A stretch of 64,000 nucleotides of DNA from a virus (Duplodnaviria; Caudoviricetes), in the IMG/VR virus record IMGVR_UViG_2933814219_000003, positions 17,103 through 81,102 of that record; one strand, given 5' to 3'. Position numbers and translations under genes: made by a program. The notes beneath the pieces were generated by a model. The model saw only the letters and a program-made list of their open reading frames with translations, had not been told where the DNA came from and ran no database searches. Each line of letters opens with the position of its first letter. Position 1 is the stretch's first letter. Below, piece after piece: positions 20,014 to 47,360 of the stretch.

Positions 20014-20112
20014 GGCAACCTCCAGCCCTTGACCTTCGATTCAAAGGATAACCGAGCCCTGTGAGATTAGAAGCTTCACCCGCACGCCGGATTATCCGAC
20101 GATTCTTCGGCA

Positions 20113-24843: not shown

Positions 24844-25341
24844 TCAGTACGCGGTGACCTGGGTGCGGTAGGCGTGGATCGTCCGACCCCAGATCCAGGC
24901 GTGCCCGCCCGGGGCCGCCACCGCGGTCCGCAGCTCCCGCTCCACCGCGGCAACCTGGTCGGCCGGTACACGGCGTCGGACGGTCCCGGGGACGGTGTAG
25001 CCGCCGTCGCGCTCGACAACGCGGACCTCGTGGAGCGGCGGGACGGGCAGCACGGCCGGCCCGTACACGACGTAGGCGATGACCCCGAGGACGGCGTCGC
25101 CGACGGCGTTGACCGCGGCAAGGAGCCGGTCGGTGTCGGCGTCAGCCTCGGCTACCCGGGCGGCGAGCTTGGGGCGGGCCCCCAGAAGACTGGCATGGTA
25201 GGCGCGGGCGTTCCGGCCGGCTTCGAGGCTGTGGAAGCAGCCGTCGTCGATCTGGGCGGCGAGATTACTGATGCGCCGGTCGAGGTCGGCGAGCTCGGCG
25301 TGGAGGTCGTCGTCGGTGTGGAAGCCGAGGGTGTCGATCAT
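24844..25341 (-). CDS. Hypothetical protein
   Basis: GGAG RBS; GC3-biased frame. Confidence 0.6.
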   Translation of the reverse strand: MIDTLGFHTDDDLHAELADLDRRISNLAAQIDDGCFHSLEAGRNARAYHASLLGARPKLAARVAEADADTDRLLAAVNAVGDAVLGVIAYVVYGPAVLPVPPLHEVRVVERDGGYTVPGTVRRRVPADQVAAVERELRTAVAAPGGHAWIWGRTIHAYRTQVTAY

Positions 25342-25356
25342 CGAGTGCTCCGAGAG

Positions 25357-25695
25357 TCAGGCGGCGAGTGCGAGCCGCGCGGCCACGGTCTTGTAGGCGG
25401 GCTTGCGGGCCTTGTAGTTGGCGGCGATGACCGCGACCTGGGTGCGGGTGTAGCGGAGGCAGTTCCGCATGTGGCGGCCGGCGTGGGCGCGGCCTGCGGT
25501 TCCGAGGATGCCGAGCTTGGTGGCGACCTTGCGGAGGGTTCCGGCGACGGATGTGGCGTCGCGGTGGGAGAGCCCCTGGGCCATGGCGTGTGCGGCGAGG
25601 GTGCCGGTGCCGCGCCGGCGGATGCGTGCGGCGGCCCGGCTGGCGAGCTGGCGGGCGCGGAGTGTGGCGCGGCGGGTGCGGTTGCTGGCGATCAC
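25357..25695 (-). CDS. Basic Arg/Ala-rich putative DNA-binding protein
   Basis: First gene after the operator-containing promoter; GAGGGGG RBS. Confidence 0.65.
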   Translation of the reverse strand: MIASNRTRRATLRARQLASRAAARIRRRGTGTLAAHAMAQGLSHRDATSVAGTLRKVATKLGILGTAGRAHAGRHMRNCLRYTRTQVAVIAANYKARKPAYKTVAARLALAA

Positions 25696-25730
25696 GGGTC
25701 CCCCTCGGGTGGTTCGGCCCCTTGCTCGGG

Positions 25731-25834
25731 GTGTAGCTACACCTTAGACTTGGGTGTAGCTACACCGCAAGCCGTTCAGCTCAAGAATCTGTAGCTACAC
25801 CCGAGAGGACAGAAGATGACGCAGGTAGCTACAC
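25731..25834. promoter_or_regulatory. Divergent promoters with four GTAGCTAC palindromic operators
   Basis: GTGTAGCTACAC at 25731 and 25754; TGTAGCTACAC 25790; GTAGCTACAC 25825; leftward TTGCGG-18-TAAGGT; rightward TACGGT just before ATG 25852. Confidence 0.85.
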
Positions 25835-25851
25835 CTGGATACGGTCAGGGC

Positions 25852-26079
25852 ATGTCGCCGAACATGCCCAAGACCCCGCCGCGCCAGATCCGCATCGGCG
25901 ACGCCTGGTACGACTTCGACGCCGCCGCCAAAGCCATGGGCACCGAGCGCGCCGCCGTGATTCGCGAGCTCATCGACTGGTACATCCGGGAACCCGGAGC
26001 CAAACTCCCGGCACGACCCGACCGGCAGGTCGTCGACGCGGCGCGCGAGGCACGGGAGAGCCGGGGCGGCACCGCATGA
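25852..26079 (+). CDS. Ribbon-helix-helix repressor (putative, leaderless)
   Basis: PKTPPRQIRI..W..F.......ERAAVIRELIDWY RHH pattern. Confidence 0.75.
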   Translation: MSPNMPKTPPRQIRIGDAWYDFDAAAKAMGTERAAVIRELIDWYIREPGAKLPARPDRQVVDAAREARESRGGTA

Positions 26080-26651
26080 CCGGCTCGATCGACCCCCGTC
26101 GGCTCACAAACCTGTATCGGCTGTTCGACAAGGACGGGCGGCTCTTGTATGTCGGCACCTCCGTTGCCCCGCAGAACCGATGGGAGCAGCACGCCCGGGA
26201 GAAGCTCTGGTGGTCCTCCGTCAGCCGCGCCACAGTCGAATGGCACCCCGGGCGGACAGAGGCCATGGCTGCCGAGCGCGCGGCCATCAAGACTGAGAGC
26301 CCGCTCTACAACGACAAGGCAACACCAGATGAGGCCGTGTTTCCCTACCAGGGGAATCGCGGCCCGCGCCTGGAGACGCAGCTTCGCCGGGCAACAACCG
26401 AGCACCACACCGCTCTGGACCGCTTGGCTGTCATGGTGAACCGTGCCGCGCTTGCTGGCCTGTCGGTTGCCGAGATCGCCGGGGCGTCCGGCCTGGAAGA
26501 GTCGGATGTCGAATACCTGGCTCGGCGACTGGACCGTGGAGGCGGCGTTAGCGCCATCTCCACGCCGTACAGTCGCGAGTGGGCACGCAAGATTGCCGAC
26601 CGCATCGACAAGGAGCGAGCCACCAAGCAGGTCGAGGGGGAACAGGCGTGA
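26076..26651 (+). CDS. GIY-YIG-like domain + HTH protein
   Basis: LYRLFD..G.LLYVG.S....RW.QH...K.WW...E..AI..E.PLYN; C-terminal GLSVAEIA HTH. Confidence 0.75.
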   Translation: MTGSIDPRRLTNLYRLFDKDGRLLYVGTSVAPQNRWEQHAREKLWWSSVSRATVEWHPGRTEAMAAERAAIKTESPLYNDKATPDEAVFPYQGNRGPRLETQLRRATTEHHTALDRLAVMVNRAALAGLSVAEIAGASGLEESDVEYLARRLDRGGGVSAISTPYSREWARKIADRIDKERATKQVEGEQA

Positions 26652-27175
26652 AGACCGTCGCCGAGGTAGATGCGTTCGCGTTCGGCGCCCACGCCGACCA
26701 GTTCGACAAGATCGGCGTCCCGTACATCGAGCACGTGCGGGCCGTGGCCGCCGGCCTGGTCCCGTTCGGTGACGACCTGGTGATGGCCGGGCTGCTGCAC
26801 GACGTCATCGAGGACACCGACTGGACCGCCGAGCAGCTGCGCAAGGCGGGCGTGCCGTATTACGTGGTCGCTCTCGTCGTGGCCGTCACGAACGAGCGGG
26901 GCATCCCCTATCAAGAGAAGGTCGCCCGCATCACCAGGCGCGGGCGGGACGCGGTCCGCCTGAAGATCGCGGACAACGCACACAACAGCCACCCCGACCG
27001 GTCGGTCATGCTGCCCGAGGAGCAGCGAACCCGGCTGGCTGCGAAGTACCGGGCGGCCCGGGACATCCTGTGGCCTGCCGCTGAGGGCCGTGACATCGAG
27101 ACCATCGTCCGGATCGTCAACCCGTCGCTGCTCGACGAACTCCGCGAGCGGCAGAGCGCTGGGAGCTCCTCATGA
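26648..27175 (+). CDS. HD-domain protein, RelA/SpoT hydrolase (small alarmone hydrolase)-like
   Basis: AH..Q..K.G.PYIEH, LLHDVIEDT, KIADNAHN motifs. Confidence 0.85.
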   Translation: MKTVAEVDAFAFGAHADQFDKIGVPYIEHVRAVAAGLVPFGDDLVMAGLLHDVIEDTDWTAEQLRKAGVPYYVVALVVAVTNERGIPYQEKVARITRRGRDAVRLKIADNAHNSHPDRSVMLPEEQRTRLAAKYRAARDILWPAAEGRDIETIVRIVNPSLLDELRERQSAGSSS

Positions 27176-27471
27176 CCGACGCCTTGGCGGCCTTCCTCAC
27201 GGCCCGGTTCGCCGAGGAACTGGAGAAGGCCCGGTTCGCGAGCAGCACGGTCACCCAGGATCCCGAGCGGTTCGGTGTCGCCCCCGAGGACGCCGCCCGG
27301 CACGCCAGGTTCTCCGTTGCCGCGGCGGAGGTGCATCTCACGCTGCTGGAGGACACCGTGATCCCGTACCTGGGCTCGGGCGGGGAGGCCGGCCAGACCG
27401 CCGAGTACCAGCTGCGGCTCCTCGCCGCCCCTTACGTCGAGCACAGGGACTACCCGCACGACCAGGGCTAG
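27172..27471 (+). CDS. DUF6221-like protein
   Basis: AFLTARFAEE..LRLLAAPYVEHRDY. Confidence 0.65.
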   Translation: MTDALAAFLTARFAEELEKARFASSTVTQDPERFGVAPEDAARHARFSVAAAEVHLTLLEDTVIPYLGSGGEAGQTAEYQLRLLAAPYVEHRDYPHDQG

Positions 27472-27519
27472 TTCCGCAGATCACCCCCGCCGCCCCTACT
27501 CCCCCGGCAGAATGCCCTC

Positions 27520-27702
27520 ATGGCGAGGTTCACGGTCCACGGTGCGACGCAGCGCGAATGCCAGGACGCCCTGGACGAGCTCGGCCGGCTCCTGGACGTG
27601 ACCGTGACGCTGCGCCCCACGCACTCCCTCGGCGGCAGCTGGATCGCCCGTGCGACACAGAAGGCCCCGGACCAGACGGTCCGGGGCCTTGCCGTGCGGT
27701 GA
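27520..27702 (+). CDS. Small hypothetical protein
   Basis: 60 aa; CAGAAT -10-like hexamer 6 nt upstream (leaderless). Confidence 0.5.
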   Translation: MARFTVHGATQRECQDALDELGRLLDVTVTLRPTHSLGGSWIARATQKAPDQTVRGLAVR

Positions 27703-27703
27703 G

Positions 27704-28288
27704 CTACGTGCAGCGGCGGAACGGGTCGAGCCTGCCGCCGTCGATGTCGATCCAGAAGTGGGTGCGGCACACCGCGGAACAGGGCGCCTCAGGCAGGAGG
27801 TAGGGGTCGAAGGTCTCCCCCGTTTCCTGGGCGCCGGCCCGGATGTGGCTCATCAAGAACAACGCGTGGTTGAGGTCGTGTCCGTGGATCCGTGCGTGGT
27901 GGGCGAGGTGGTCATTGAGCCACATTTCCATCCGCCCGTCGACCGCGGCTTCTCGGTGAAGTACAGCCTGCCGCTCCCGAATCTGGTCGATGGTGATCGT
28001 TTGGTGGTCGTCGTACTTCTGGTGGCACCCAGGCGCGGTAACGCTCTTGTTGGAGCAGAGGTAGAGAACGTTGCCGGGGTGGTGGAACTCTCCCCGAAGC
28101 CATTCCTCGGTGATGCCCCCGTATTCGGCCACGTTCGTGGGCCAGTTACGGATGTGGGCTACGTCGCGTGGCTGCCGAATGGTTCCGCACATGGCGCAGC
28201 GGCCCCCGCTCAGCTCTCTCGCGAATCGGGCGAGGGAGGCTGGCAGCGGGGGCCGCGTTCTGCGTGCGGGCTGGATGGTGGCGGTCAT
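27704..28288 (-). CDS. HNH endonuclease-like protein
   Basis: CAMCG..DVAHI..GNVLYLC..CHQKYD; TACGGT 6 nt upstream of ATG. Confidence 0.7.
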   Translation of the reverse strand: MTATIQPARRTRPPLPASLARFARELSGGRCAMCGTIRQPRDVAHIRNWPTNVAEYGGITEEWLRGEFHHPGNVLYLCSNKSVTAPGCHQKYDDHQTITIDQIRERQAVLHREAAVDGRMEMWLNDHLAHHARIHGHDLNHALFLMSHIRAGAQETGETFDPYLLPEAPCSAVCRTHFWIDIDGGRLDPFRRCT

Positions 28289-28332
28289 GGGCTGACCGTA
28301 GAGGCGACCCCTGACAATCCCCGCCGGGCACG

Positions 28333-28818
28333 CTACTTCGGCAGCTGGTTGCGGGTGTTGGCGATGACGCCGCGGGTGGTGCTGGTGACGGTGCGCTCGT
28401 CGTGGTGGACGGTGCCGTGGAAGTGCTGCACCAGGGGCTGGGCGGTCTGGTTGGCGTCCTTGACCTTCGCAACGAGCCGGGCCACTGCGAGGGCTGCGAC
28501 GGCCGGCGAGCCGAAGATGATGCCGAGGGCCCACGGCTCGATCTGGCCGACGATCCACAGGGCGCCGCCGATCGGCAGGGACGCCACGGACACGGCCTTC
28601 AGGACCCCGCTCGCGTCGATCGCCCACTGCGACATCGGGGGCGGGCCGGGCTGCTGAACGGGCGGGGTGGGGCCGACCGCGGGGAGCGGGGTGGTGTCGC
28701 GGTACGAGGTGACCCGGCCGGCGAGGAGGGCTTCGTCGACCGCAGCCACCAACTGGTCGGCGTTGCGGCGGATGGTGGGGTCGGGCTGCCCGGCGACGGG
28801 CTGCTCGGGCAGCTGCAT
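28333..28818 (-). CDS. Two-TM membrane protein, Spd-like (plasmid spread)
   Basis: Pro-rich N-terminus, two hydrophobic segments; directly downstream of traB-like gene; AAGGAG RBS. Confidence 0.6.
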   Translation of the reverse strand: MQLPEQPVAGQPDPTIRRNADQLVAAVDEALLAGRVTSYRDTTPLPAVGPTPPVQQPGPPPMSQWAIDASGVLKAVSVASLPIGGALWIVGQIEPWALGIIFGSPAVAALAVARLVAKVKDANQTAQPLVQHFHGTVHHDERTVTSTTRGVIANTRNQLPK

Positions 28819-28864
28819 GAGAGGGCTCCTTCGGGACGGGGAGTTACGTAAAGTGACGAATCCG

Positions 28865-29050
28865 GGAAGCGATCAGTTTGTGATGGTTTAGGACGATACG
28901 GGAAGCCGGGCGGACCCCTGGCCGACAAAGAAACGTGCAGGTCAGTGCCAGGCAGAAGCCGGGCGCCTACTCTCCTGAGCTGGACGGGAGTGTCCGGCTC
29001 AGAAGCTCGATGCCCGACTTTGGAGCCGAACCGCCAGGGCCCTGACCTGC
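28865..29050. repeat. Candidate clt (cis-acting locus of transfer): imperfect 8-bp direct repeats
   Basis: GGAAGCGA 28865, GGAAGCCG 28901, AGAAGCCG 28954, AGAAGCTC 29001, TGGAGCCG 29021; non-coding gap immediately downstream of traB. Confidence 0.4.
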
Positions 29051-29083
29051 GAAAGGGCAGGGCCCGCCTGGGGTTTGGCTGGG

Positions 29084-31240
29084 CTATTCACCCATCCCGA
29101 ACCGGTCACGCACCGTTATCAGCACTCGGGATCGGGGGTAGCCGACCACCCTGCTCCCCAGCCACGGGCGCTTCGCCTTCTCGTCATCCGTGCGAACGAC
29201 CAGCCGGCCCAGGCTGTCAGCGGACAGAGCCGTACCGGCGTCAGCCAGGGCGTCCACGAGGACCGATCCCGGAAGCCACTCCGCGGGCTCCCCCTCGCCG
29301 TCCAGGTGCGCATCAAAGGTGTCCAGCAGGACGGCCAGCACTCGGGCGTCGTCATCGTCGACCGCACGCAGCTGGTCGGCCAGCGGCACCGAACCAGCGG
29401 GCAGCGTGCCCGCCTTGGCCCGCAGCTCGAAAGCCCGGCCAAGGATCAGGTCAACTTCGTCGTCGTCGTAGTAGTAGCCGCGGGTCAGCTCCGGTTCGGC
29501 ACCCTCGCCGTCCATGTAGATGCCGACACCGCGCTGCGACTTGAGGATGTCCTGGGCGTTGTGGCCAGCCGCCGCGTATCCCTGGCCGAGGATCGTGTCC
29601 GAGGCCTGCGGGGTCAGGCAGCGCATCGCCCACCGGATGGAGAGGATGTCACGGATCCCGGACGGCACCGAGTCCGCGTCCGGCTTCTGCGTGGCGCAGA
29701 GGGTGATGATGCCGAGCGCCCGGCCCTGCTGCACGATCAGCCGCAGCAGCCGTTCCATCTCCTCGCGAACCCTACGGTCGGCGGCGGCGCCGTAGGACGA
29801 CCACTCGTCGACGAGGAGCACTGCCAGGTTGACCCGCGGGTCCTTGGCCGCCATGGCCGCGGTCAGCTTCCGTGACCCGTGCTCCTTCGCGAGGGCGCGG
29901 CGCCGCGGGATCTCCACAGTCCAGATGTGCTCCAGGATCTCCAGCAGCCGCTCCGGTTCGCCGTCGGTGTCGTGCATGGCGGCGATCGGCTCGAACGGGG
30001 TGAGGTCCGCGCCGGCTTTCCCGTCGCACAGGTACAGAGCGACCGTCGGGTCGAGGGCTGCGGCGAGCAGTAGGTCGTTCGCGGCGGCGGACTTGCCCGC
30101 GCCAGGCTCTCCGCCGAACAGGCCGGACCGCTCGACCCAGGACGTGGACACTTCCTGGCCTCGCAGGTTGACGCCCATGGGGATGGCCCGCCACAGGTTG
30201 ATGCAGTTCAGGTCGAGAAGCGGGCCCGGATCGGGCTTGCCGGTGAACGGCAGGTGCAGTGAGACCCGCAGCTGCAGGCGGCCCTCGCGGTCGCCGGGCG
30301 CCTGGTGCAGCTGCTGCACCTTCACGCCGAGGGCGCTGGCCACACCGGTCTTTGCCGTCAGGGCCTTCTTCAGCGGGGTTCCGGACGGCAGGTCGAGCGT
30401 GACCTCCCACGCCTTGCCGTCGGCGGTCAGCGTGCACGGGGTTAGCAGCTCAACGACCTCGTCAGCGCCGATGACCTTCGCGTCCCGGTAGATCTTGTTC
30501 AGCATGCTGTCGGTCAGCTTGAGGGTGTCCCCGAACTTCACGTCGTGGTCGTGGTAGAGCTCGCCGCCGGCCGTGCGCCGGCCGATCAGGGCGAACGCAA
30601 GGAGCGCGGATCCGGTGGCGATGACACCGCCGGTGCCACCGATCAGGTAGATCCCAGCGCCCTCGGGCACTGCGACGGCTGCGGCGGCGAGCGCGCCGCG
30701 GGCCGCACGCCTCGTCCGGGCGTCCCGCTGGGCCGCCTTGTACCTGCTCATTGCGGTGACGGATCCAGCGAACGCCTTATCCATCTCGGCGCGCCGCTTG
30801 TACTTCTCCTTGCCGGGGATGAGCCTCCTTCCGTGGTGCCCCTTCGCCGTCTTGTAGTCGCCTTGGGCCTGCTGGACTTCACGCCGCGCGGTGGCGACCT
30901 GGACGCCTTCGGTGCCCTGGATCCAGAGGAACGTGCGGTGCATCCCGCGGAAGACCTGGGCGCCGTGCCCGTGCTCGGTGGACTGCCGGCGCACCCACCG
31001 GCGGAACGCCCGGACGGAGTTGACCTTCCCGACCTCAGCGCGGGTTCGCCATCCGGCGGGGGTACGCACCCACTCCGGCGTGAGGGGCATGTCGCCGAGG
31101 AGGTCCGGGCGGTTGACGGGAACGTCGGCCGTCTTCTGGAGGACGGGGCCGACGGGCTTCTCGGCCGGGGCCGCGGTGAGGTCGGCGACGAGCCGATCCC
31201 AGTTCGGGTCGGGAGTTGCGGGGGTGCGCTCGATGCTCAC
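29084..31240 (-). CDS. traB: FtsK/SpoIIIE-family DNA translocase, TraB-like conjugal transfer protein
   Basis: TM hairpin; Walker A GGEPGAGKS; LCDGKAG; Walker B LLVDE; GRALGI..ATQKP; C-terminal wHTH-like domain. Confidence 0.85.
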   Translation of the reverse strand: MSIERTPATPDPNWDRLVADLTAAPAEKPVGPVLQKTADVPVNRPDLLGDMPLTPEWVRTPAGWRTRAEVGKVNSVRAFRRWVRRQSTEHGHGAQVFRGMHRTFLWIQGTEGVQVATARREVQQAQGDYKTAKGHHGRRLIPGKEKYKRRAEMDKAFAGSVTAMSRYKAAQRDARTRRAARGALAAAAVAVPEGAGIYLIGGTGGVIATGSALLAFALIGRRTAGGELYHDHDVKFGDTLKLTDSMLNKIYRDAKVIGADEVVELLTPCTLTADGKAWEVTLDLPSGTPLKKALTAKTGVASALGVKVQQLHQAPGDREGRLQLRVSLHLPFTGKPDPGPLLDLNCINLWRAIPMGVNLRGQEVSTSWVERSGLFGGEPGAGKSAAANDLLLAAALDPTVALYLCDGKAGADLTPFEPIAAMHDTDGEPERLLEILEHIWTVEIPRRRALAKEHGSRKLTAAMAAKDPRVNLAVLLVDEWSSYGAAADRRVREEMERLLRLIVQQGRALGIITLCATQKPDADSVPSGIRDILSIRWAMRCLTPQASDTILGQGYAAAGHNAQDILKSQRGVGIYMDGEGAEPELTRGYYYDDDEVDLILGRAFELRAKAGTLPAGSVPLADQLRAVDDDDARVLAVLLDTFDAHLDGEGEPAEWLPGSVLVDALADAGTALSADSLGRLVVRTDDEKAKRPWLGSRVVGYPRSRVLITVRDRFGMGE

Positions 31241-32535
31241 TTCTGCTCCTCGGAGGGGGTCCGTTCGATGCGCGCCTGGTTACGTGCAAGGGGGCTGGGG
31301 GGCGGCGTGTCACCGGCCCGGCGACGGGGCGGGATGCCCCCGTTTCCGCGGCGCCCGTCGGGGGCCTTCGGGTCCTTCTTCGGCTTAGGGGGTCGATGGG
31401 AATTGATCAGCGAAAACTCTCCGAAAACCGGGGTCTTCGTAGCGGCCTGCATCCGAGCCTCTGCACCCCGTGACTGCGCCTCGATTTCGGGGGTAATCCC
31501 GACGGTCTTCGAGCCCGTGACACGGCCCCACGCCTCGGTCCAGATCTGCTCGGTGACGTACTGCGAACCGCGGGCGGACCGGATCGCTTCGGCGACCTCC
31601 CACACCTTCGGATGGCCGTCCTTTCGGTCGGCGTCGCGCCGCTTCTGTTCCTCCTTCGCGCGGGCCTCCGTGATCTGCCGGTCCGCTTCCGCGGCGAGCT
31701 CCGCGTCGCGCTGTACCTGCTGCTCCTTCTTGAGCGCGGCAGCCGCCTCGGACTGGGCCCGCGCTACGGCCCGGCGTTCCCTCCAGGAAGGGATGCCGTC
31801 GGCCTTCTGCGCCATGCCGTGCTCGTAGGCCATGAGGACGAGCGGCCCACCAAGGGATGCGATGGCGCCGATGAGGCCGGCGTTCAGGCCGATGCGATCA
31901 TCGGAGATCCCGCCGTGAAGGTTGACGACGGCGGCAACGACGGCGCCGACCATGATCCCGATGCGGTAGGGGGCGACGTCTCGCCGGTTGGCGACCGCCC
32001 ATGCGGCACCGAACGCGAGGACGAGAGCGAACCCTTCGAGGAGGGCGGGGGCTGCAACGAGGAAGGGTCGCTTGGGGTCCCAGAAGTGCATGAACTGAAC
32101 CGGCCCGGCGATGATCATGCCGACGGCGTAGATGGCGCGGGCGCCCCACTTCCACCAGTGCTCCGACCGCTGCTGCTCGACCTCCCGCTTGGCCTCGGCG
32201 GCTTCACGGTCGGCTTCGGCCTTCTCCGCTTTCTGCTTCTCGGCGTTTGCCCTGGCGGTCTCGGCGGCCTTCTTCGCGACGTAGGCGTCGTGGTCGACCT
32301 GTTTGCGTTCCTGCGTGAGTCGGGCCCGCTCGTTGGCGAGGCGCAGCTTTTCGGCTTCCTCAGCTGCAAGGGTGCGGGCCGCGTCGGCTTCGCCCTTGGC
32401 CTTGAGCTTGAGGGCTTCGGCTTCGGCTTCGGCTCTGGCGCGAACGGCGTCCGCCTCGGCAAGCGCAACCGGGTCGAACCGGGGCTCGGAGGTGGGGCGC
32501 TTGTGGCCGTTCACCTGGGGCGGGCTGGTCGTCAC
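31237..32535 (-). CDS. SpdB2/DUF2637-like multi-TM coiled-coil protein
   Basis: Coiled coil, four TM segments, coiled coil; GTGA-coupled to traB. Confidence 0.65.
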   Translation of the reverse strand: MTTSPPQVNGHKRPTSEPRFDPVALAEADAVRARAEAEAEALKLKAKGEADAARTLAAEEAEKLRLANERARLTQERKQVDHDAYVAKKAAETARANAEKQKAEKAEADREAAEAKREVEQQRSEHWWKWGARAIYAVGMIIAGPVQFMHFWDPKRPFLVAAPALLEGFALVLAFGAAWAVANRRDVAPYRIGIMVGAVVAAVVNLHGGISDDRIGLNAGLIGAIASLGGPLVLMAYEHGMAQKADGIPSWRERRAVARAQSEAAAALKKEQQVQRDAELAAEADRQITEARAKEEQKRRDADRKDGHPKVWEVAEAIRSARGSQYVTEQIWTEAWGRVTGSKTVGITPEIEAQSRGAEARMQAATKTPVFGEFSLINSHRPPKPKKDPKAPDGRRGNGGIPPRRRAGDTPPPSPLARNQARIERTPSEEQK

Positions 32536-32563
32536 GGCGAGAGTTCCTTTCAGGTGGGGGCGG

Positions 32564-32758
32564 TCAGATGCGGGCGGTGGCGGGGTTCTTGCCGCGCAGG
32601 TGGGCAATGGTGGCGACACCGAGCCCGAAACCGATGAGGACCGGCTGGGCGGCAACGAACTGCACGGTCGCGGCGACGGTGGTGGCGACCGTCTGGGCCA
32701 GTCCCGGGAACAGGACCAGCAGTGCGAGGGTGAGCAGGATCCAAAGCAGGATTTTCAC
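32564..32758 (-). CDS. Small hydrophobic Spd-like membrane protein
   Basis: MKILLWILLTLALLVLFPG..; 64 aa, two TM segments. Confidence 0.7.
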   Translation of the reverse strand: MKILLWILLTLALLVLFPGLAQTVATTVAATVQFVAAQPVLIGFGLGVATIAHLRGKNPATARI

Positions 32759-32802
32759 GGTTCGGCCCTTCCTGGGCTCGGTGGTGAGTGAGGGTCGGTC
32801 GG

Positions 32803-32862
32803 TGGCGCCCCGGGCCGGAGTCGAACCGGTCTCCCACCCCCTCGGTCCTCGGGTGGCGGGGC
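32803..32862 (-). ncRNA. Mini tRNA-like element 1 (acceptor stem + one hairpin + T-arm + GCCA)
   Basis: Minus strand GCCCCG-CCACCC-GAGGACCGAGG-GGGTGG-GAGA-CCGG-TTCGACT-CCGG-CC-CGGGGC-G-CCA. Confidence 0.55.
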
Positions 32863-32870
32863 TGTGGCGG

Positions 32871-33047
32871 TCAGTTGCAGCAGTCGCACTTCGGGTCGGT
32901 GCACTTCTCGACGCGGCCGAGGCCAAGGGCCCCGGTCACCTTGTTGGCGACCTCCCCGCCCCGGTCTCCGGCAACGGTCCTGCCGACGACTTGGGCACTG
33001 CGGGTGGCGACCTCGGCGGCACTGGTCTTGCGGTTGAACAGACCCAT
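32871..33047 (-). CDS. Small protein MGLFNR paralog B (58 aa, Cys-rich tail)
   Basis: MGLFNRKTSAAEVA...CTDPKCDCCN; AAGGAGG RBS; not in ORF track. Confidence 0.7.
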   Translation of the reverse strand: MGLFNRKTSAAEVATRSAQVVGRTVAGDRGGEVANKVTGALGLGRVEKCTDPKCDCCN

Positions 33048-33076
33048 GGGGCCCTCCTTGTGGTGGTTGATGCGGG

Positions 33077-33127
33077 GAGCGCCCCGGGCCGGAGTCGATC
33101 CGGCAGCCTCACGCCGTGATCCGGGGC
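33077..33127 (-). ncRNA. Mini tRNA-like element 2
   Basis: Minus strand GCCCCGG-A-TCAC-GGC-GTGA-GGCT-GCCGG-ATCGACT-CCGGC-CCGGGGC-G-CTC: perfect 7-bp acceptor and 5-bp T stem. Confidence 0.55.
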
Positions 33128-33133
33128 GGTGGC

Positions 33134-33382
33134 TCAGCGGTTCAGCCAGCCGGCGCGGCGACTGTCGCCGTCCGCGGCAACGACCCGCTCGACGTAGTCC
33201 GCGACCTCCTGGCCGCGGGCGTTGCAGCCCTTGCTGGTCAGCGCCGCCGCGAGGGTCCCGGTCCGGAACGTGGCCGCGGCCTCCTCGTCACCGCCCCTGA
33301 CGGCGGTGCGGATGTCCTTGGTGAGTGCGGCGTGACCGGTGACCTCGGCCGCGGTGTCGGTGATCCGGTTGAACAAGCCCAT
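33134..33382 (-). CDS. Small protein MGLFNR paralog A
   Basis: MGLFNRITDTAAEVT..; AAGGAG RBS. Confidence 0.7.
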   Translation of the reverse strand: MGLFNRITDTAAEVTGHAALTKDIRTAVRGGDEEAAATFRTGTLAAALTSKGCNARGQEVADYVERVVAADGDSRRAGWLNR

Positions 33383-33413
33383 GACGCTCTCCTTCGGGTT
33401 GGGGGGTTGGTGG

Positions 33414-33632
33414 CTACCGGGCGGTCTCGGCGGCGACGACGGCGGCGGCCTTGGCGATCTCGGCGTAGACGGTGGCGAGGCCGCTGTAAGCGGTGATCGC
33501 CGGGCCGTTGTCCCGGAGGCTGCACGCGGTGTCGTGGGCGGCGAGCCGGCCAGCCCTGTCGGCGTACACCACGGCCTTGGCCAGGGCCTCGGCGGCGATC
33601 TCCTGCGGACGGGCCTCGGTCTGCGTGGCCAT
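33414..33632 (-). CDS. Small Ala-rich protein
   Basis: MATQTEARPQ..; GAGGAG RBS. Confidence 0.65.
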   Translation of the reverse strand: MATQTEARPQEIAAEALAKAVVYADRAGRLAAHDTACSLRDNGPAITAYSGLATVYAEIAKAAAVVAAETAR

Positions 33633-33726
33633 GGGGTTCTCCTCGGTGGGTGTTGGGTCCGGGTGGTTCCCGGGCCACTCCGCCGCCACCAGCCGTGGGG
33701 CTGGGGACGACAGGGCAGCCCGGGGG

Positions 33727-34020
33727 TCAGGCCGCGGCCGGGGTCGACAGGCCGTCCAGCTCGTCGAGCAGGCGGGGCCCGAACGGCTGCCCGGCGTCGT
33801 GCTCGGCGGCCAGGGTCCGCAGCCAGTGCTGGATGCCGTAGTCGCCGCGGGCCGCGACGTACCGGGTGACGATCTCCCCCGGCGACAGGCCCTCCGCCTC
33901 CTCCCACGTCACCACCACGTCGGAGGTCAGGAGCGCGGCCCGCAAGTTGTGGATCTCAGCGGACACAGCGGCGAGGTCGCCGGAGAACAGATCGGTCACG
34001 GACGAAACGAACGGAGACAT
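33727..34020 (-). CDS. Hypothetical protein
   Basis: MSPFVSSV..; GAAGGG RBS. Confidence 0.6.
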   Translation of the reverse strand: MSPFVSSVTDLFSGDLAAVSAEIHNLRAALLTSDVVVTWEEAEGLSPGEIVTRYVAARGDYGIQHWLRTLAAEHDAGQPFGPRLLDELDGLSTPAAA

Positions 34021-34082
34021 GGGGGTGCCCTTCGAGTGGGTGGTGGGGTGGTTCGGTGGCGTTGCGGACGGTGCGATGGGGG

Positions 34083-34400
34083 CTATGCGCTCGTGCGGGC
34101 GGCCAGGATCGGGTCGAGGGTTTGCCGCATCCACATGCGGTACCGCTCGCCCGTCAAATCGCTCCGGGTGGCCTTGGTGACGTTGCCCGCCTCGTGCACG
34201 AGGTTCTCGCTGTCGCGGTCGTCCTCGTCGAGGGTCTCGGCCGCTTCCTCCAGGACCCGCTCAAAGGCCTCGGCGGGCGGCATGTCCTCGTAGCTGTCGG
34301 CGAAGAGGCCGAACGCGTCAATCACCCGGGGCATGTACGTGGCGACCAAGGTGTCGAAGGAAGCCTCGGGATTGTTCAGGGGCTTCTCGGGGACGTTCAT
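34083..34400 (-). CDS. Acidic hypothetical protein
   Basis: MNVPEKPL..; GGGAG RBS. Confidence 0.6.
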   Translation of the reverse strand: MNVPEKPLNNPEASFDTLVATYMPRVIDAFGLFADSYEDMPPAEAFERVLEEAAETLDEDDRDSENLVHEAGNVTKATRSDLTGERYRMWMRQTLDPILAARTSA

Positions 34401-34474
34401 CAGGGCTCCCATCAGGTCGAGTGGAAGGCCGCTCCCGCCCGGGACGGGGGTCGGACACCGGGCAGAAGCGGCGG

Positions 34475-34615
34475 TCAGTGGGTGGTGCGCTTCGCCTTCT
34501 CGGCGGCCTCACGGCGGGCCCTCACGGACTCGATGTCCTCCGCGTCCCGCCGGATACGGTCCAAACGGAGGCGGAGGTCACGGTCAGCGGGACACAGGTC
34601 AGCAGACCCGAACAC
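34475..34615 (-). CDS. Small 46-aa ORF
   Basis: MFGSADLCPADRDLRLRLDRIRRDAEDIES..; fills the gap in the operon. Confidence 0.4.
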   Translation of the reverse strand: MFGSADLCPADRDLRLRLDRIRRDAEDIESVRARREAAEKAKRTTH

Positions 34616-34621
34616 GGCCGG

Positions 34622-34858
34622 TCACCAGCCGCGCTTGGCGCGTTCGACCTGGCGGGCCTTCCCGACCATCACGTCGAGACAACCACCCGGAAGGTCAATC
34701 ACACCGTCGAAGTCGGCCAGGGTCACGCCGTGGTCGGCGGCAGCGGCGAGAAGCGCTTCAAGCAGAGAAACCGCCTCCGCAATAACCACCGGGCCGGCCG
34801 GGGTGCCGTACCGGTGGACGGCGGCCACACGCTCAGCCGACGTACCGGGGATCGACAT
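34622..34858 (-). CDS. Hypothetical protein
   Basis: MSIPGTSAERV..DFDGVIDLPGGCLD.. Confidence 0.6.
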   Translation of the reverse strand: MSIPGTSAERVAAVHRYGTPAGPVVIAEAVSLLEALLAAAADHGVTLADFDGVIDLPGGCLDVMVGKARQVERAKRGW

Positions 34859-34860
34859 GG

Positions 34861-35028
34861 TCACCACCCCCGCTGCGCAATGAACCGGCGGCGAGCAGCC
34901 GGATCCGCGGGCGGCGTCGGAGAGTCCTGGGAGACCTGCGCCGGGCGGCGAACGTAAGACGCCTTCTCGTGGGCCAGGTCGTCCGCAGCAGACATCGGGG
35001 CGGACGGCGGGGTGATCGACGGGGTCAT
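34861..35028 (-). CDS. Small 55-aa ORF
   Basis: MTPSITPPSAP..RGW*; ATGA-coupled to upstream HTH gene. Confidence 0.5.
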   Translation of the reverse strand: MTPSITPPSAPMSAADDLAHEKASYVRRPAQVSQDSPTPPADPAARRRFIAQRGW

Positions 35029-35276
35029 GCCGCCACCTCGCTCGGGGAGGTCGGGTCGCTGGGCGTCGCGAGGAACTCGACGACAGCCGTGCGGGGAATG
35101 GTGGTGAGGGTGCGGCGAATCTGCCCGCTCCCCCGACTGGTCGAGCGAATGCGGCCGGTCTTGACCGCTCGGTAGACCGTCGCCGGGTGGACGCCGATGA
35201 GAGCGGCCACCTCAGGGACGGTGAGGGAGTCCTGAAGGTCGTCGAGCACTGCATCGAGTGCGTCGCGGGGAGACAT
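35025..35276 (-). CDS. Excisionase-like HTH (HTH_17) protein
   Basis: LTVPEVAALIGVHPATVYRAVKTGRI..IPRTAV; first gene of the transfer operon. Confidence 0.8.
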   Translation of the reverse strand: MSPRDALDAVLDDLQDSLTVPEVAALIGVHPATVYRAVKTGRIRSTSRGSGQIRRTLTTIPRTAVVEFLATPSDPTSPSEVAA

Positions 35277-35318
35277 GTGCGGTCCTCCGGATTCGGGCAG
35301 GGGCGGGGAAGGTCATTT

Positions 35319-35382
35319 CCACTTGGCTATGCAAGTGGCGACACCCCTGACGATAGGCCGAATCCACTTGGCTATGCAAGTG
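35319..35382 (-). promoter_or_regulatory. Transfer-operon promoter with two GntR-type operators
   Basis: CCACTTGGCTATGCAAGTG at 35319 and 35364; minus-strand TTGCAT-18-TATCGT overlaps the upstream copy. Confidence 0.85.
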
Positions 35383-35419
35383 CCGCGACTGTTTTACCTT
35401 CGAGCGAGTCGCCGGGCAC

Positions 35420-35453
35420 AAAAGAACGCCCCCACCGGGAAGGTGGGGGCGTT
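35420..35453 (-). terminator. Intrinsic terminator of the GntR gene
   Basis: 12-bp stem AACGCCCCCACC/GGTGGGGGCGTT followed by CTTTT on the minus strand. Confidence 0.8.
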
Positions 35454-35474
35454 GGCGGTGCGGGCGATGCGGGG

Positions 35475-36251
35475 CTACACATCGATCACGTAGCGGAAGG
35501 CATGCCGGTCGCAGGGGACGATGGAATCGAGCACCTCGATGGCGTCGCCGGCCGAGTCGTAAGCCGTGCGCAGCACCCTGGCCACCGGCACACCGTCGGG
35601 GATGTCGAGCTGATCCACCTCGTGCGGATATGGCATCCGAACGTCGAGATCCTCGATGAACTGAACGATGCGGCGGCCGATCGGCCCGTCTGGATCTTCG
35701 ACGTAGGCGTTGGCGCCGCCCTTGATCAGTCGGGCTTCCGCAAGTCGCGTGCCGCCAGCGACCTTTGCGTCGTAGTAGCAGTCGACCAGCTGCATCGGGG
35801 TGTCGTCCGTGACGAACAGGAACCGCCGCGCCACGACCGGGGCCCCGGCTTCGATCCCCAGCAGTTGAGCGACGCGCTCGGGGGCGGCCGTCTCGACTAC
35901 TTCCCGGATGACCTGCTTCGGCTTCTGCCCCTGGGCTTCAGCTTCCGCGTTGAAGTTCGACTTCCCTGTGCCTCGGCGGGCGCGGTAGATGCTGCCCGTC
36001 TGCCTCAGATTGACGTGCGGGCGCTCACGAACGAACGCCCCCTTGCCTTGCTTCGAGGTGATGAGCCCTTCGGCCCGCAGCAGAGCGATGCCCTTGCGGA
36101 CCGTGGTCCGGGTCACGCCAAAGCGATCCTTCAGCTCGTTCTCGGACGAGAGCTGGTCGCCGGGCGCGAGGTCGCCTCGGAGGATCTCGGTGCGCAGTTC
36201 GTTGGCCACCCTCTTGAAGGGGTGCTCGTGTGCGGGGTTTGGTGACATCAC
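35475..36251 (-). CDS. GntR/HutC-family (wHTH + UTRA) repressor, KorSA/TraR-like
   Basis: PGDQLSSENEL..FGVTRTTVR..GKGAFV plus UTRA domain; next to the transfer operon. Confidence 0.9.
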   Translation of the reverse strand: MMSPNPAHEHPFKRVANELRTEILRGDLAPGDQLSSENELKDRFGVTRTTVRKGIALLRAEGLITSKQGKGAFVRERPHVNLRQTGSIYRARRGTGKSNFNAEAEAQGQKPKQVIREVVETAAPERVAQLLGIEAGAPVVARRFLFVTDDTPMQLVDCYYDAKVAGGTRLAEARLIKGGANAYVEDPDGPIGRRIVQFIEDLDVRMPYPHEVDQLDIPDGVPVARVLRTAYDSAGDAIEVLDSIVPCDRHAFRYVIDV

Positions 36252-36305
36252 GCTCCTGTCGAGTGGGTACTCAAGTCAGCGTAAGGCCACAGGTCGCAAA
36301 CGCGC

Positions 36306-36725
36306 CTAATCCTGACGCGCCACCCATCCTGACCAGCGGTTTACTCGAATCTTGATCACGGGCCCTGCTGGCCGTTGGGCTCGATACTGCGCGTACTTGT
36401 CTACCAATGGCTCCACAAGTTCCTGTGCATGTTCGTTCTCAAGTACCTCGGCTTCCCCGTCGGCTCGGACCCACCAGAGCTGATCCCAGTCGTCGTCGTA
36501 GTGATCGACAAGCAGGGTGACCGCCGGGTTCTCGGCGATGTTCCGAAGGCGCTTCAGGTTGGAGGTGGACTTCGGCTTGTGGTCCACGGCGATCACGACA
36601 GCGTCGCCAGCGAGGGCGTAGGTAGCCGGCACCAGGTGGGGTTGTCCCTCGGAATCAACGGTGCCAAGCCTGAGCACCCGGCCGCACCCGAAGGTCTCCT
36701 GACACTGCCTCTCCGTCATCTTCAT
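36306..36725 (-). CDS. PPOX-class F420-dependent oxidoreductase (Rv0121-like)
   Basis: LGTV...G.PHLVP..AVDHKPK...LKRLRNIAENP.V.LLVDHY.DDW..LWWVRADG. Confidence 0.85.
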   Translation of the reverse strand: MKMTERQCQETFGCGRVLRLGTVDSEGQPHLVPATYALAGDAVVIAVDHKPKSTSNLKRLRNIAENPAVTLLVDHYDDDWDQLWWVRADGEAEVLENEHAQELVEPLVDKYAQYRAQRPAGPVIKIRVNRWSGWVARQD

Positions 36726-47124: not shown

Positions 47125-47360
47125 GTGCTGGTCCTTTCTGGCGGCTGGCAGTCGGTGCAGGGCTTCGGGGTGGGGCCGGTTGGGGCGGTGCCGCAGGGCC
47201 AGGCGCCGGGGCGGCGGATGTGGAAGCAGGGCTGTTCGGGTTCGGCTTGGCGCTGCTTGGGTGCGGTGGGGGTGATGCCTGCGGCGAGGAGTAACAGGGC
47301 TTTGAGGTCGCCTTGTTCGCGGGCGGCGACGATGTCGTCGACGGTCGGCTCCCACGTCAC
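47121..47360 (-). CDS. Small phage protein after dnaB
   Basis: DI.A.REQGDLK..RPGAWP motif; coupled at both ends. Confidence 0.65.
   Translation of the reverse strand: MTWEPTVDDIVAAREQGDLKALLLLAAGITPTAPKQRQAEPEQPCFHIRRPGAWPCGTAPTGPTPKPCTDCQPPERTST

What the first reader, a model, noticed from the sequence alone, without database searches (positions are those of the whole stretch)
32803..33127. Two miniature tRNA-like elements punctuating the transfer operon
Seen on the coding strand, 7-9 nt after two consecutive stop codons: GCCCCG(G) acceptor strand, one variable hairpin, T-arm CCGG-(T/A)TCGACT-CCGG, CCGGGGC acceptor strand, G discriminator, then CCA (copy 1) or CTC (copy 2). They are 60 and 51 nt with no D-arm. 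The acceptor and T-arm are conserved between copies, while the middle hairpin differs entirely in sequence but still pairs (CCACCC/GGGTGG versus TCAC/GTGA), which points to selection on RNA structure. Known: acceptor plus T-arm with RCCA is the minimal RNase P substrate. Inference: these could be processing or stabilising signals that set Spd/TraB stoichiometry, or released tRNA mimics or decoys for anticodon-nuclease defences.
Basis: partly seen in the sequence, partly recalled or inferred. Interest (0 to 1): 0.85.

Follow-up and report, generated by a model that had tools for sequence, protein, structure and literature searches.

The report
Mini tRNA mimics punctuating Streptomyces transfer operons
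Two short tRNA-like elements that follow consecutive small genes here belong to a large, apparently undescribed family in the DNA-transfer operons of Streptomyces plasmids and integrated elements, and they probably make host tRNA-processing enzymes act on the operon's messenger RNA.

Summary
Both elements sit on the minus strand: 33127-33077, and 32862-32803. They share a 24-25 nt T-arm/acceptor core (2 matches, 0.01 expected).

They belong to a family. One degenerate pattern found 130 mini-elements among 203 hits in viral contigs, genomes and plasmids, and ARAGORN called none of them a tRNA. A covariance model hit 24 of 150 Streptomyces species genomes, with 1-5 copies each.

- **Position:** copies lie 6-12 nt after a stop codon, point the same way as the flanking genes, and precede the next start by 30-49 nt.
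- **Context:** a TraB-like gene lies in 59 of 107 fetched loci.
- **Structure:** 99% of cells pair, 9 of 15 pairs show compensatory changes, and G·U far outnumbers A·C. This points to a fold of the sense strand.
- **Host mimicry:** a purine discriminator plus an invariant C74, the same 3' signature as host tRNA genes (C74 in 48 of 48).
- **Not att scars:** no host or flanking tRNA matches.

Cleavage by RNase P or RNase Z is inferred, not shown; no RNA run was listed. The elements also mark the borders of swapped small-ORF modules. No description turned up in six literature searches or Rfam.

The parts
33077..33127 (-). Copy 2, class A mini tRNA-like element. It has a 7-bp acceptor (GCCCCGG/CCGGGGC), a 3-bp hairpin with loop GUGAG, a T arm GCCGG-AUCGACU-CCGGC, discriminator G (33080) and tail CUC.
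   Evidence: Covariance-model score 74.1 bits, E 6e-11.
32803..32862 (-). Copy 1, class C element. It has a 6-bp acceptor plus a C·C mismatch, a long hairpin CCACCC/GGGUGG with an 11-nt loop, a T arm CCGG-UUCGACU-CCGG, discriminator G (32806) and CCA.
   Evidence: Covariance-model score 29.1 bits, E 0.027. Relatives of the same class are in L086, L125, L187, L121 and L011.
33079..33103 (-). Shared T-arm/acceptor core, copy 2 side of the 25-nt direct repeat.
32805..32829 (-). Shared T-arm/acceptor core, copy 1 side. The junction of the 274-bp unit that L034 and L009 lack falls inside this repeat.
33134..33382 (-). Small ORF of 82 aa (MGLFNR...). Its stop lies 6 nt before copy 2.
   Evidence: No Pfam family.
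32871..33047 (-). Small ORF of 58 aa (MGLFNR..., Cys-rich C-terminus). Its stop lies 8 nt before copy 1.
   Evidence: Matches phrog_29738.
32564..32758 (-). Small hydrophobic ORF of 64 aa downstream of copy 1.
31237..32535 (-). 432-aa ORF between the small ORFs and traB. No family found.
29084..31240 (-). TraB-type FtsK/SpoIIIE DNA translocase.
   Evidence: PF01580 at 3.4e-07. phrog_1358 at 6e-151.
35475..36251 (-). GntR/UTRA regulator upstream of the operon.

Best explanation
The two elements are members of a family of 45-70 nt cis-acting RNA structures that are transcribed as part of the tra/spd (conjugative transfer and spread) operon mRNA of Streptomyces plasmids, integrated conjugative elements (AICEs) and related proviral records.

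Each copy folds into the 'top half' of a tRNA. This is a 7-bp acceptor stem stacked on a 5-bp T-arm-like hairpin, followed by a purine discriminator and C74. The D and anticodon arms are replaced by a spacer and a small variable hairpin.

The element copies the features that host pre-tRNAs present to the maturation machinery, including the host-specific 'N73-C74, CCA usually not encoded' 3' signature. The most likely mechanism is therefore recruitment of host tRNA-processing enzymes. RNase P would cut immediately 5' of G1, which is 6-12 nt after the upstream stop codon. RNase Z, exonucleases and the CCA-adding enzyme may then act at the 3' side. The polycistronic transcript would thus be cut between cistrons, and the stability of individual small-ORF messages would be set separately.

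What is shown: the family, its position and orientation, the strand-specific conserved fold, and the host pre-tRNA-like 3' signature. What is inferred: transcription through the element, cleavage, and any effect on expression.

As a side effect, or a second role, the near-identical cores act as joints at which small-ORF modules are gained, lost or exchanged.
For: - **Family size.** Of 203 pattern hits, 130 are mini-elements, 32 are ARAGORN tRNAs and 41 are other or unclear. In plasmids the element is conserved at 80-98% while the flanks show no DNA similarity.
- **Prevalence.** Model R1 hits 24 of 150 Streptomyces species genomes at E<=0.001, with 1-5 copies each.
- **Position and orientation.**
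  - Flanks run the same way as the element in 77 cases against 11 upstream, and 73 against 13 downstream (127 contexts; the rest undetermined).
  - Of the 119 contexts with an upstream ORF ending within 60 nt, the stop codon lies 6-12 nt before G1 in 72.
  - The next start codon lies 30-49 nt downstream in 73 of 124.
- **Structure, pattern-collected set.** Alignment A1 holds 98 sequences. 99.1% of cells pair, with swaps at three pairs (CG 61/GC 36; GC 48/GU 42; GC 78/CG 18), and 0 of 500 shuffles reach the observed score.
- **Structure, model-collected set.** Alignment A2 holds 57 sequences. 99.2% of cells pair and 9 of 15 pairs change on both sides. These include the acceptor (GCUCUGG/CCAGAGC) and at least six different T-stem sequences. 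Again 0 of 500 shuffles reach the score, and slid controls pair at 20-63%.
- **Strand specificity.** G·U/U·G against A·C/C·A is 43 to 8 in A1 and 32 to 3 in A2.
- **Host pre-tRNA signature.** The discriminator is A in 75, G in 48 and C in 1 of 124 copies. Position 74 is C in 124 of 124, and CCA is present in 14 of 124. Host Streptomyces tRNA genes have C74 in 48 of 48 and CCA in 7 of 48. Passages of PMC5143459 say that actinobacterial elongator tRNA genes mostly do not template CCA.
- **Low copy number and context.** A TraB-like ORF lies in 59 of 107 fetched mini-element loci, and all 65 loci with such an ORF hold an element (6 had been dropped from the list of 107 as duplicate sequences or class C variants), so no locus without an element has one.
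- **Precedent.** Plant-mitochondrial t-elements are tRNA-like structures at mRNA ends that are cut by RNase P and RNase Z (PMC1920247, passages).
Against: - There are no RNA data, so neither transcription through the element nor any processed end is shown (one search listed no run).
- Class A, which is most copies, has A54 (116 of 124). The canonical U54·A58 T-loop pair therefore cannot form, and A54 can instead pair with U60 (fold). Only classes C, D and E carry a canonical UUCGAMU loop.
- There is no D loop to build a tRNA elbow.
- Rfam's tRNA model does not match, even at E<=10.
- CCA is not enriched.
- Position -1 is A or C rather than U, although host leaders are not U-rich either.
- The primary sequence of the acceptor is far more conserved than a fold alone would require. 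This could mean recognition by a sequence-specific factor, or frequent recombination or gene conversion.
- Sequences in the alignments are related, so the shuffle controls overstate significance. A2 was also fitted to the model.
- The operon can exist without the element: homologues of the 82-aa ORF in plasmid CP108026 and in pSCL2 have none.
Confidence: 0.5

Rival explanations
1. The elements act at the DNA level as recombination joints. Like integron attC sites, or simply as homologous hot spots, they sit at the end of each small-ORF module. Their main role would be to let modules be inserted, deleted or exchanged between transfer operons.
For: - The window has a 274-bp unit (58-aa ORF plus class C element) that L034 and L009 lack, and the junction falls inside the shared 24-25 nt core.
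- L094 and L006 carry a different 61-aa ORF between two elements, and L121 carries a different ORF upstream.
- The element is conserved while its flanks are unrelated.
- Each copy follows an ORF and points the same way.
Against: - The excess of G·U over A·C, the invariant C74 and the purine discriminator that match host pre-tRNAs are not expected for a double-stranded DNA site.
- Sequence is highly conserved and 99% paired, unlike attC sites, which conserve structure more than sequence (a recalled feature).
- No link to an integrase was tested.
- Homology that breaks off at the edges of a conserved element is expected under any model.
Confidence: 0.15
2. The elements are generic intercistronic stem-loops. 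They would protect upstream message from 3' exonucleases, or act as U-tract-less terminators or attenuators, with no involvement of tRNA enzymes.
For: They are GC-rich stable folds (-28 kcal/mol) placed just after stop codons. Other simple hairpins occupy similar gaps in pFP11.
Against: - A generic hairpin would not keep the same acceptor sequence, T-arm geometry, discriminator and C74 across unrelated operons.
- The fold is a three- or four-way junction, not a single hairpin.
- The terminator scan does not flag them, while it does flag a real hairpin-plus-T-run site at 35425-35453.
Confidence: 0.15
3. After cutting on both sides the mini-tRNA is released and acts in trans. It might be CCA-tailed or even aminoacylated, and serve for example as a decoy or competitor for a tRNA-binding host or defence factor that recognises the acceptor/T-arm half.
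For: It has the same features as the main model. The acceptor stem plus A73 is identical to host tRNA-Leu(CAA) in some Streptomyces. Released, stable t-element RNAs are reported in plant mitochondria (PMC1920247 passages).
Against: There are no RNA data. There is no anticodon arm, so anticodon nucleases are excluded as targets. No candidate partner was identified.
Confidence: 0.1
4. The elements are binding sites on double-stranded DNA for a plasmid protein, such as TraB at a clt locus, SpdA-type proteins or the GntR repressor.
For: They are linked to TraB modules. They contain palindromic arms. A conserved palindrome bound by SpdA2 is known in these plasmids (PMC4170104; abstract and passages).
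Against: - The known sps site is a 12-bp palindrome inside spdA, not a 45-70 nt intergenic element.
- The TraB recognition sites I recall are 8-bp direct repeats.
- Strand-specific wobble pairs, fixed orientation and fixed spacing to stop codons are not needed for a duplex binding site.
- Stem sequences change by compensation.
Confidence: 0.06
5. The elements are decaying remnants of tRNA genes or att sites, with no function.
For: The T arm plus acceptor resemble a tRNA 3' half. The nearest host tRNA, Leu-CAA, shares the acceptor stem and 22 of 25 positions of that half.
Against: - No host tRNA is identical, and the tRNAs flanking six chromosomal copies (Tyr, Thr, Met, Trp, Arg, Ser) do not match.
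- The 5' acceptor strand is present.
- There are more than 130 copies with compensatory changes.
- There are up to 3 copies per operon.
Confidence: 0.03

Closest known systems
t-elements of plant mitochondria (tRNA-like structures at mRNA ends, cut by RNase P and RNase Z). Source: PMC1920247, passages read.
   Same: An incomplete tRNA-like fold built around a GGTTCRANYCC-type T arm and an acceptor stem. It is embedded in mRNA next to ORF ends and proposed as a cis signal for tRNA-processing nucleases.
   Different: Those are organellar and few per genome, and their transcript ends have been mapped experimentally. This family is bacterial, sits on mobile elements, follows stop codons in a polycistronic operon, and has no end mapping yet.
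Canonical tRNA / pre-tRNA (Rfam RF00005)
   Same: A 7-bp acceptor stem, a 5-bp T stem with a 7-nt loop directly adjoining it, a purine discriminator, and C74 as in host tRNA genes.
   Different: There is no D arm, no anticodon arm and no anticodon. ARAGORN and Rfam do not call it. Most copies have A54.
mascRNA / MEN-beta tRNA-like 3'-end signals of mammalian long non-coding RNAs (recalled, not read here)
   Same: A tRNA mimic inside a long transcript that directs RNase P cleavage and is then released and CCA-tailed.
   Different: Those are eukaryotic, present as a single copy at a 3' end, and cloverleaf-like with four arms.
tRNA-like domain of tmRNA
   Same: Acceptor stem plus T arm without an anticodon arm.
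   Different: tmRNA has G3·U70, a tag reading frame and pseudoknots. Here position 3-70 is C-G in 98 of 98 sequences, and ARAGORN finds no tmRNA.
Integron attC sites (features recalled)
   Same: A structured repeat following each short, promoterless ORF in the same orientation, with modules gained or lost at the repeat.
   Different: Sequence is highly conserved and fully paired. No integron integrase was looked for. The wobble bias and tRNA-like 3' signature point to RNA.
sps palindrome bound by SpdA2 in Streptomyces plasmids (PMC4170104; abstract and passages)
   Same: An unexpectedly conserved short motif in the otherwise variable spd region of Streptomyces plasmids.
   Different: sps is a 12-bp palindrome inside or next to spdA and is a DNA-binding site. 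It is unrelated in sequence, size and position.

Membership tests
canonical tRNA | 7-bp acceptor stem directly stacked on a 5-bp T stem with a 7-nt loop | tested here: met
   A1 and A2 pair at 99.1% and 99.2% with compensatory changes. Window copy 1 has two junction mismatches.
canonical tRNA | D arm and anticodon arm with a 7-nt anticodon loop | tested here: not met
   ARAGORN finds 0 tRNAs in the window and of 130 mini-elements. Rfam gives no RF00005 match at E<=10.
canonical tRNA | T-loop U54-U55-C56-R57-A58 | tested here: inconclusive
   U55, C56 and R57 were required by the collecting pattern, so they are not an independent result. Position 54 is A in 116 of 124 and U in 8 of 124, the latter including window copy 1.
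canonical tRNA | Host-type 3' end (discriminator, then C74; CCA encoded only sometimes in actinobacteria) | tested here: met
   Elements have a purine discriminator in 123 of 124, C74 in 124 of 124 and CCA in 14 of 124. Host tRNA genes have C74 in 48 of 48 and CCA in 7 of 48.
tRNA-like mRNA processing signal (t-element / mascRNA type) | tRNA-like fold embedded in a longer coding transcript next to ORF ends | tested here: met
   Position and orientation relative to ORFs. Transcription itself was not observed.
tRNA-like mRNA processing signal (t-element / mascRNA type) | Transcript ends coincide with element ends (RNase P / RNase Z cleavage) | not testable with these tools
   No RNA run was listed for the locus.
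tmRNA tRNA-like domain | G3·U70 alanine identity pair and a tag reading frame | tested here: not met
   Pair 3-70 is C-G in 98 of 98 sequences (columns 6-51). ARAGORN reports no tmRNA.
integron attC | Follows each cassette ORF; cassettes gained or lost at the site | tested here: met
   There is one clear insertion/deletion and two module replacements among close relatives.
integron attC | Adjacent IntI-type integrase with attI; structure conserved but sequence poorly conserved, with extrahelical bases | tested here: inconclusive
   The integrase was not searched for. Sequence conservation is high and pairing is near-perfect, which does not fit attC as I recall it.
REP-type repeat / intrinsic terminator | Many dispersed copies per genome; simple hairpin followed by a U tract | tested here: not met
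   There are 1-5 copies per genome. The terminator scan does not flag them. The fold is multi-branched.
att-site scar of a host tRNA | Near-identity to the 3' half of the tRNA at the integration site | tested here: not met
   The closest host tRNA, Leu-CAA, differs in the T arm. Flanking tRNAs at 3 of 6 chromosomal copies are Tyr, Thr, Met, Trp, Arg and Ser and are unlike the element. The other 3 have no tRNA within 20 kb.
clt / TraB recognition site | Clustered 8-bp direct repeats bound by TraB (recalled) | not tested
   Only co-occurrence with TraB-like genes was measured.

The most novel reading that the evidence does not exclude
Streptomyces conjugative elements use a bacterial version of organellar 'tRNA punctuation'. 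In this reading, armless tRNA mimics after each small ORF recruit host RNase P, 3'-processing enzymes and the CCA-adding enzyme. These cut the transfer-operon mRNA into separately tuned messages and release CCA-tailed mini-tRNAs. The same elements serve as the joints at which small-ORF cassettes are shuffled between plasmids, integrated conjugative elements and prophages.
Probability: 0.25. Interest if true: 0.85.

Novelty: new variant of a known kind. Interest (0 to 1): 0.72.

Why it matters
How the many tiny, fast-evolving spd genes of Streptomyces conjugation operons are expressed in the right proportions is unknown.

A conserved RNA element after individual cistrons gives a concrete, testable handle on that question. 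It needs only acceptor-stem mutants, RACE and an RNase P assay, and could be done on a tractable plasmid such as pFP11.

If it is processed, it would be a bacterial, mobile-element example of mRNA punctuation by tRNA mimics. It would also add mRNA targets to actinobacterial RNase P.

The element is also a compact marker for TraB-type transfer modules in genomes and 'provirus' calls, and a candidate new RNA family for Rfam.

Tried and rejected
- **RNA evidence.** The look-up of sequencing runs on window 29000-36500 (kind rna) listed no RNA holder.
- **Rfam.** An E<=10 search of 32400-33600 gave only chance-level microRNA/sRNA matches far below their gathering scores.
- **Phages.** The collection gave only two partial E=0.1 hits inside a kinase gene, so nothing.
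- **Literature.** Six searches found no paper describing a tRNA-like element in Streptomyces transfer operons. The sps palindrome (PMC4170104) turned out to be a different thing. Supplementary files were not consulted.
- **Earlier notes.** These held only first-reader notes on this same stretch.
- **Genome-wide repeat.** Rejected, because there are 1-5 copies per genome. Only 38-150 of about 25,000-33,000 first-look candidates were scored per genome, so these counts are lower bounds.
- **att scar.** Rejected.
- **5' leader comparison.** The element has C at -2 in 116 of 124. Host tRNAs have C at -3 in 33 of 45. There is no shared register, so this is not used as evidence.
- **Rows dropped before counts.**
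  - A1 used 98 of the 105 class A sequences. Seven were left out because an extra base in or beside the GYGA hairpin would have disturbed the columns: L183, L095, L104, L157, L173, L175 and L182.
  - One search used 124 of the 134 unique sequences. Ten were dropped as true tRNAs or doubtful: L007, L159, L161, L018, L026, L176, L069, L056, L060 and L115.
  - One search used 127 distinct contexts.
- **Not done.** A statistical test of homology breakpoints against element positions was considered but not run, because conserved elements attract alignment ends under every model.
Full report
**1. What is in the window**

On the minus strand, two consecutive small ORFs each begin MGLFNR: 33382-33134 (82 aa) and 33047-32871 (58 aa). 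Each is followed by a short element, after 6 nt and 8 nt respectively.

Copy 2 (33127-33077) reads as follows:
- acceptor strand GCCCCGG;
- spacer;
- a 3-bp hairpin with loop GUGAG;
- T arm GCCGG-AUCGACU-CCGGC;
- acceptor strand CCGGGGC;
- discriminator G, then CUC.

Copy 1 (32862-32803) reads as follows:
- acceptor strand GCCCCG(C);
- a 6-bp hairpin CCACCC/GGGUGG;
- T arm CCGG-UUCGACU-CCGG;
- acceptor strand CCGGGGC;
- discriminator G, then CCA.

The shared 24-mer occurs twice in the window against 0.01 expected by chance. The repeat finder reports it as a 25-nt direct repeat with a spacing of 274.

ARAGORN finds no tRNA in the 64 kb, and Rfam finds nothing credible. Cut from G1 to the tail, both elements take the tRNA-like fold as their minimum-energy structure. 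With flanks added, copy 1 prefers an alternative fold and neither is unusually stable (z-scores +0.5 to -1.7). Thermodynamics alone would therefore not have flagged them.

The surrounding genes form a TraB-type transfer and spread module. In order along the minus strand it contains:
- a GntR/UTRA regulator;
- a terminator-like site;
- two operator-like repeats;
- several small ORFs, then the two ORF-plus-element units;
- a 64-aa hydrophobic ORF and a 432-aa ORF;
- an FtsK/SpoIIIE protein of 718 aa.

The record is an IMG/VR 'provirus'. It also carries portal, terminase and DnaB genes.

**2. It is a family**

blastn against plasmids matched the elements alone, at 80-98% identity, in intergenic gaps of tra/spd operons of about 15 Streptomyces plasmids. 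The flanking genes gave no DNA match. The annotated regions show up to three copies in one operon, all pointing the same way as the genes.

A degenerate pattern of the T arm plus acceptor 3' strand found 62 stretches in viral contigs. The 203 instances break down as follows:
- 130 are mini-elements, and ARAGORN calls none of them a tRNA;
- 32 are genuine tRNAs (Arg, Leu, Thr and others);
- 41 are other or unclear.

Among the record titles shown (L068-L147), every mini-element locus is titled Streptomyces, except one Actinacidiphila. The genuine tRNAs there come from other taxa.

Several sub-types recur:
- **Class A:** spacer plus the GYGAN hairpin, with T loop AUCGAMU. Window copy 2 belongs here.
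- **Class B:** class A with an extra 5-6 bp hairpin, giving a four-way junction.
- **Class C:** a long CCACCC/GGGUGG hairpin with T loop UUCGACU. Window copy 1 belongs here.
- **Class D:** a longer form with a GC-rich middle hairpin and a canonical UUCGACU T loop (L022, L049, L054, L064).
- **Class E:** a 45-nt form with only about 9 nt between the acceptor and the T arm.

**3. Structure is under selection on the sense strand**

On 98 class A sequences (A1) the three-helix model pairs 99.1% of cells, against 20-63% when the partners are slid. Swaps appear in the small hairpin (CG 61/GC 36; GC 48/GU 42) and in the T stem (GC 78/CG 18). That set was collected with a fixed pattern, which hides variation in the T arm and the acceptor.

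I therefore built a covariance model and searched loci and genomes with it. The 57 hits of A2 pair at 99.2%. Nine of 15 pairs change on both sides, and 0 of 500 shuffles reach the observed values. Examples are:
- acceptor GCUCUGG/CCAGAGC;
- T stems GCGGG/CCCGC, GCCCG/CGGGC, GUCGG/CCGAC, GCCGC/GCGGC, GCGAG/CUCGC and GCGGA/UCCGC.

Wobble pairs outnumber A·C/C·A by 43 to 8 in A1 and 32 to 3 in A2. This is expected if the coding strand folds, and not if the duplex or the antisense strand is what matters.

Two caveats apply. The sequences are related, and A2 was fitted to the model.

**4. Position**

In 127 distinct contexts, codon-position GC periodicity puts the upstream flank on the element's strand in 77 cases against 11. 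For the downstream flank it is 73 against 13; the rest were undetermined. Of the 119 contexts with an upstream ORF ending within 60 nt, the stop codon lies 6-12 nt before G1 in 72. A Shine-Dalgarno-like sequence plus start codon follows 30-49 nt after the discriminator in 73 of 124.

Copy number is low: 1-3 model hits in each of four complete genomes, and 24 of 150 Streptomyces species genomes with 1-5 hits. Both are lower bounds, because few candidates were scored. A looser pattern matched 48 of 301 genomes. About 31 of those matches, by my reading of the list, are true elements, and the reversed-pattern control gave 19.

An iterated profile of the window's TraB finds a TraB-like ORF in 59 of 107 mini-element loci, many of which are short. 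All 65 loci with such an ORF hold an element.

**5. tRNA-likeness beyond the fold**

The discriminator is A in 75, G in 48 and C in 1 of 124 copies. The next base is C in 124 of 124, followed by UC (46), GC (39), CA (14) or others.

I then examined host tRNA genes. In 48 distinct Streptomyces tRNA genes the base after the discriminator is C in 48 of 48, and full CCA is encoded in only 7 (first seen). Passages of PMC5143459 state that in Actinobacteria mainly initiator tRNA genes template CCA.

The element therefore reproduces the host's own pre-tRNA 3' signature. A DNA-binding site or a generic hairpin has no reason to keep that signature.

Against perfect mimicry, class A has A54 (116 of 124), which can pair with U60 (fold) instead of forming the T-loop U54·A58 pair. 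No D loop exists either.

**6. Not att scars**

The closest host tRNA is tRNA-Leu(CAA). It has an identical acceptor stem and A73 in some species but a different T arm.

Around six chromosomal copies I checked 20 kb on each side. Three have no tRNA there. The other three are flanked by Tyr, Thr, Met, Trp, Arg or Ser tRNAs that do not resemble the element. An att scar would also lack the 5' acceptor strand.

**7. Module borders**

Relative to the window, L034 and L009 lack exactly the 274-bp unit made of the 58-aa ORF and the class C element. The junction falls inside the shared core.

L094 and L006 keep both flanks but have a different 61-aa ORF between two elements. L121 has the 58-aa unit but a different MGLFNR ORF upstream.

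Homologues of the 82-aa ORF in a Kitasatospora plasmid and in pSCL2 have no element at all. The elements thus coincide with the borders of exchangeable small-ORF modules. I treat this as a consequence of their near-identical cores or as a second role. It does not by itself separate the models.

**8. Mechanism**

The best-supported reading is a cis-acting RNA that presents the acceptor/T-arm half of a pre-tRNA to host maturation enzymes. I recall that this half is the minimal RNase P substrate; I saw only the search listing of PMC11221534 on minimal substrates.

RNase P cleavage at G1 would separate the upstream cistron 6-12 nt after its stop codon. The downstream message would then begin with a base-paired 5' structure, unless 3' processing releases the mini-tRNA.

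The closest precedent I could read is the t-elements of plant mitochondria (PMC1920247, passages). mascRNA and RNase P cuts in E. coli operon mRNAs are recalled only.

A further inference concerns spacing. With the stop codon only 6-12 nt upstream, a terminating ribosome would cover the start of the acceptor stem, so folding could be coupled to translation of the upstream ORF.

None of the RNA-level steps is shown. I put the whole statement at 0.5, and the narrower claim that this is a conserved, strand-specific structured element of transfer operons at about 0.85.

**9. Novelty**

Six full-text searches found no description of this element. Rfam 15 has no matching family. The only earlier notes of this scan are first-reader notes on this same stretch.

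tRNA-like processing signals are a known kind. A bacterial family tied to conjugative transfer operons, with armless architecture and a host-matched C74, appears to be a new variant.

Noticed in passing
window 18466-21657, 47357-48844 and 29084-36251: The same record holds phage portal and terminase genes and a DnaB helicase, alongside a complete TraB/GntR/spd-type conjugative module. It is either a prophage with an inserted conjugative element or a hybrid element. No integrase or att site was looked for.
   Followed up: partly
window 35318-35385: Two 23-nt direct repeats 45 nt apart, each with an internal CACTTG...CAAGTG palindrome. They lie between the GntR gene and the first ORF of the operon and are probably the repressor's operators.
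   Followed up: no
window 35425-35453 (minus strand): A 12-bp GC-rich hairpin followed by a T run, just after the GntR gene. It is the only convincing intrinsic-terminator-like site in 31000-36500.
   Followed up: no
L224 about 2010-2100 and 2350-2440 (plasmid CP108026, Kitasatospora): A different repeated intergenic element of about 90 nt follows two stop codons in the same kind of operon. It has a conserved 5' box, a GC hairpin and a GGTGTTCGA-containing 3' box. R1 does not detect it. It may be a second family with the same role.
   Followed up: no
window 32871-33047 and 33134-33382; L094 5300-6200; L121 600-1500: A family of very small proteins shares the N-terminus MGLF(N/S)R but has otherwise different bodies. 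Some have Cys-rich C-termini. They occupy the slots between elements.
   Followed up: partly
Streptomyces tRNA loci L188-L193 and L226-L267: All 48 distinct host tRNA genes examined have C directly after the discriminator, but only 7 encode CCA. This is a strict 'C74-only' templating pattern. I found no mention of it in the passages of PMC5143459 that I read.
   Followed up: partly
L026 3629-3703: A 75-nt tRNA-like sequence with the same acceptor and T arm. It has a D-arm-like hairpin but only a 4-5 nt loop on the 'anticodon' stem. It may be an intermediate between a tRNA and the mini-elements.
   Followed up: no
L015, L032, L043, L056/L057, L059/L066, L060 and L115: In viral-contig stretches and one non-Streptomyces MAG (L115, Anaerolineales), very short forms occur: the acceptor strand, then about 12 nt, then a canonical GGTTCGACTCC T arm and the acceptor 3' strand. 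Armless tRNA mimics may therefore exist beyond Streptomyces.
   Followed up: no
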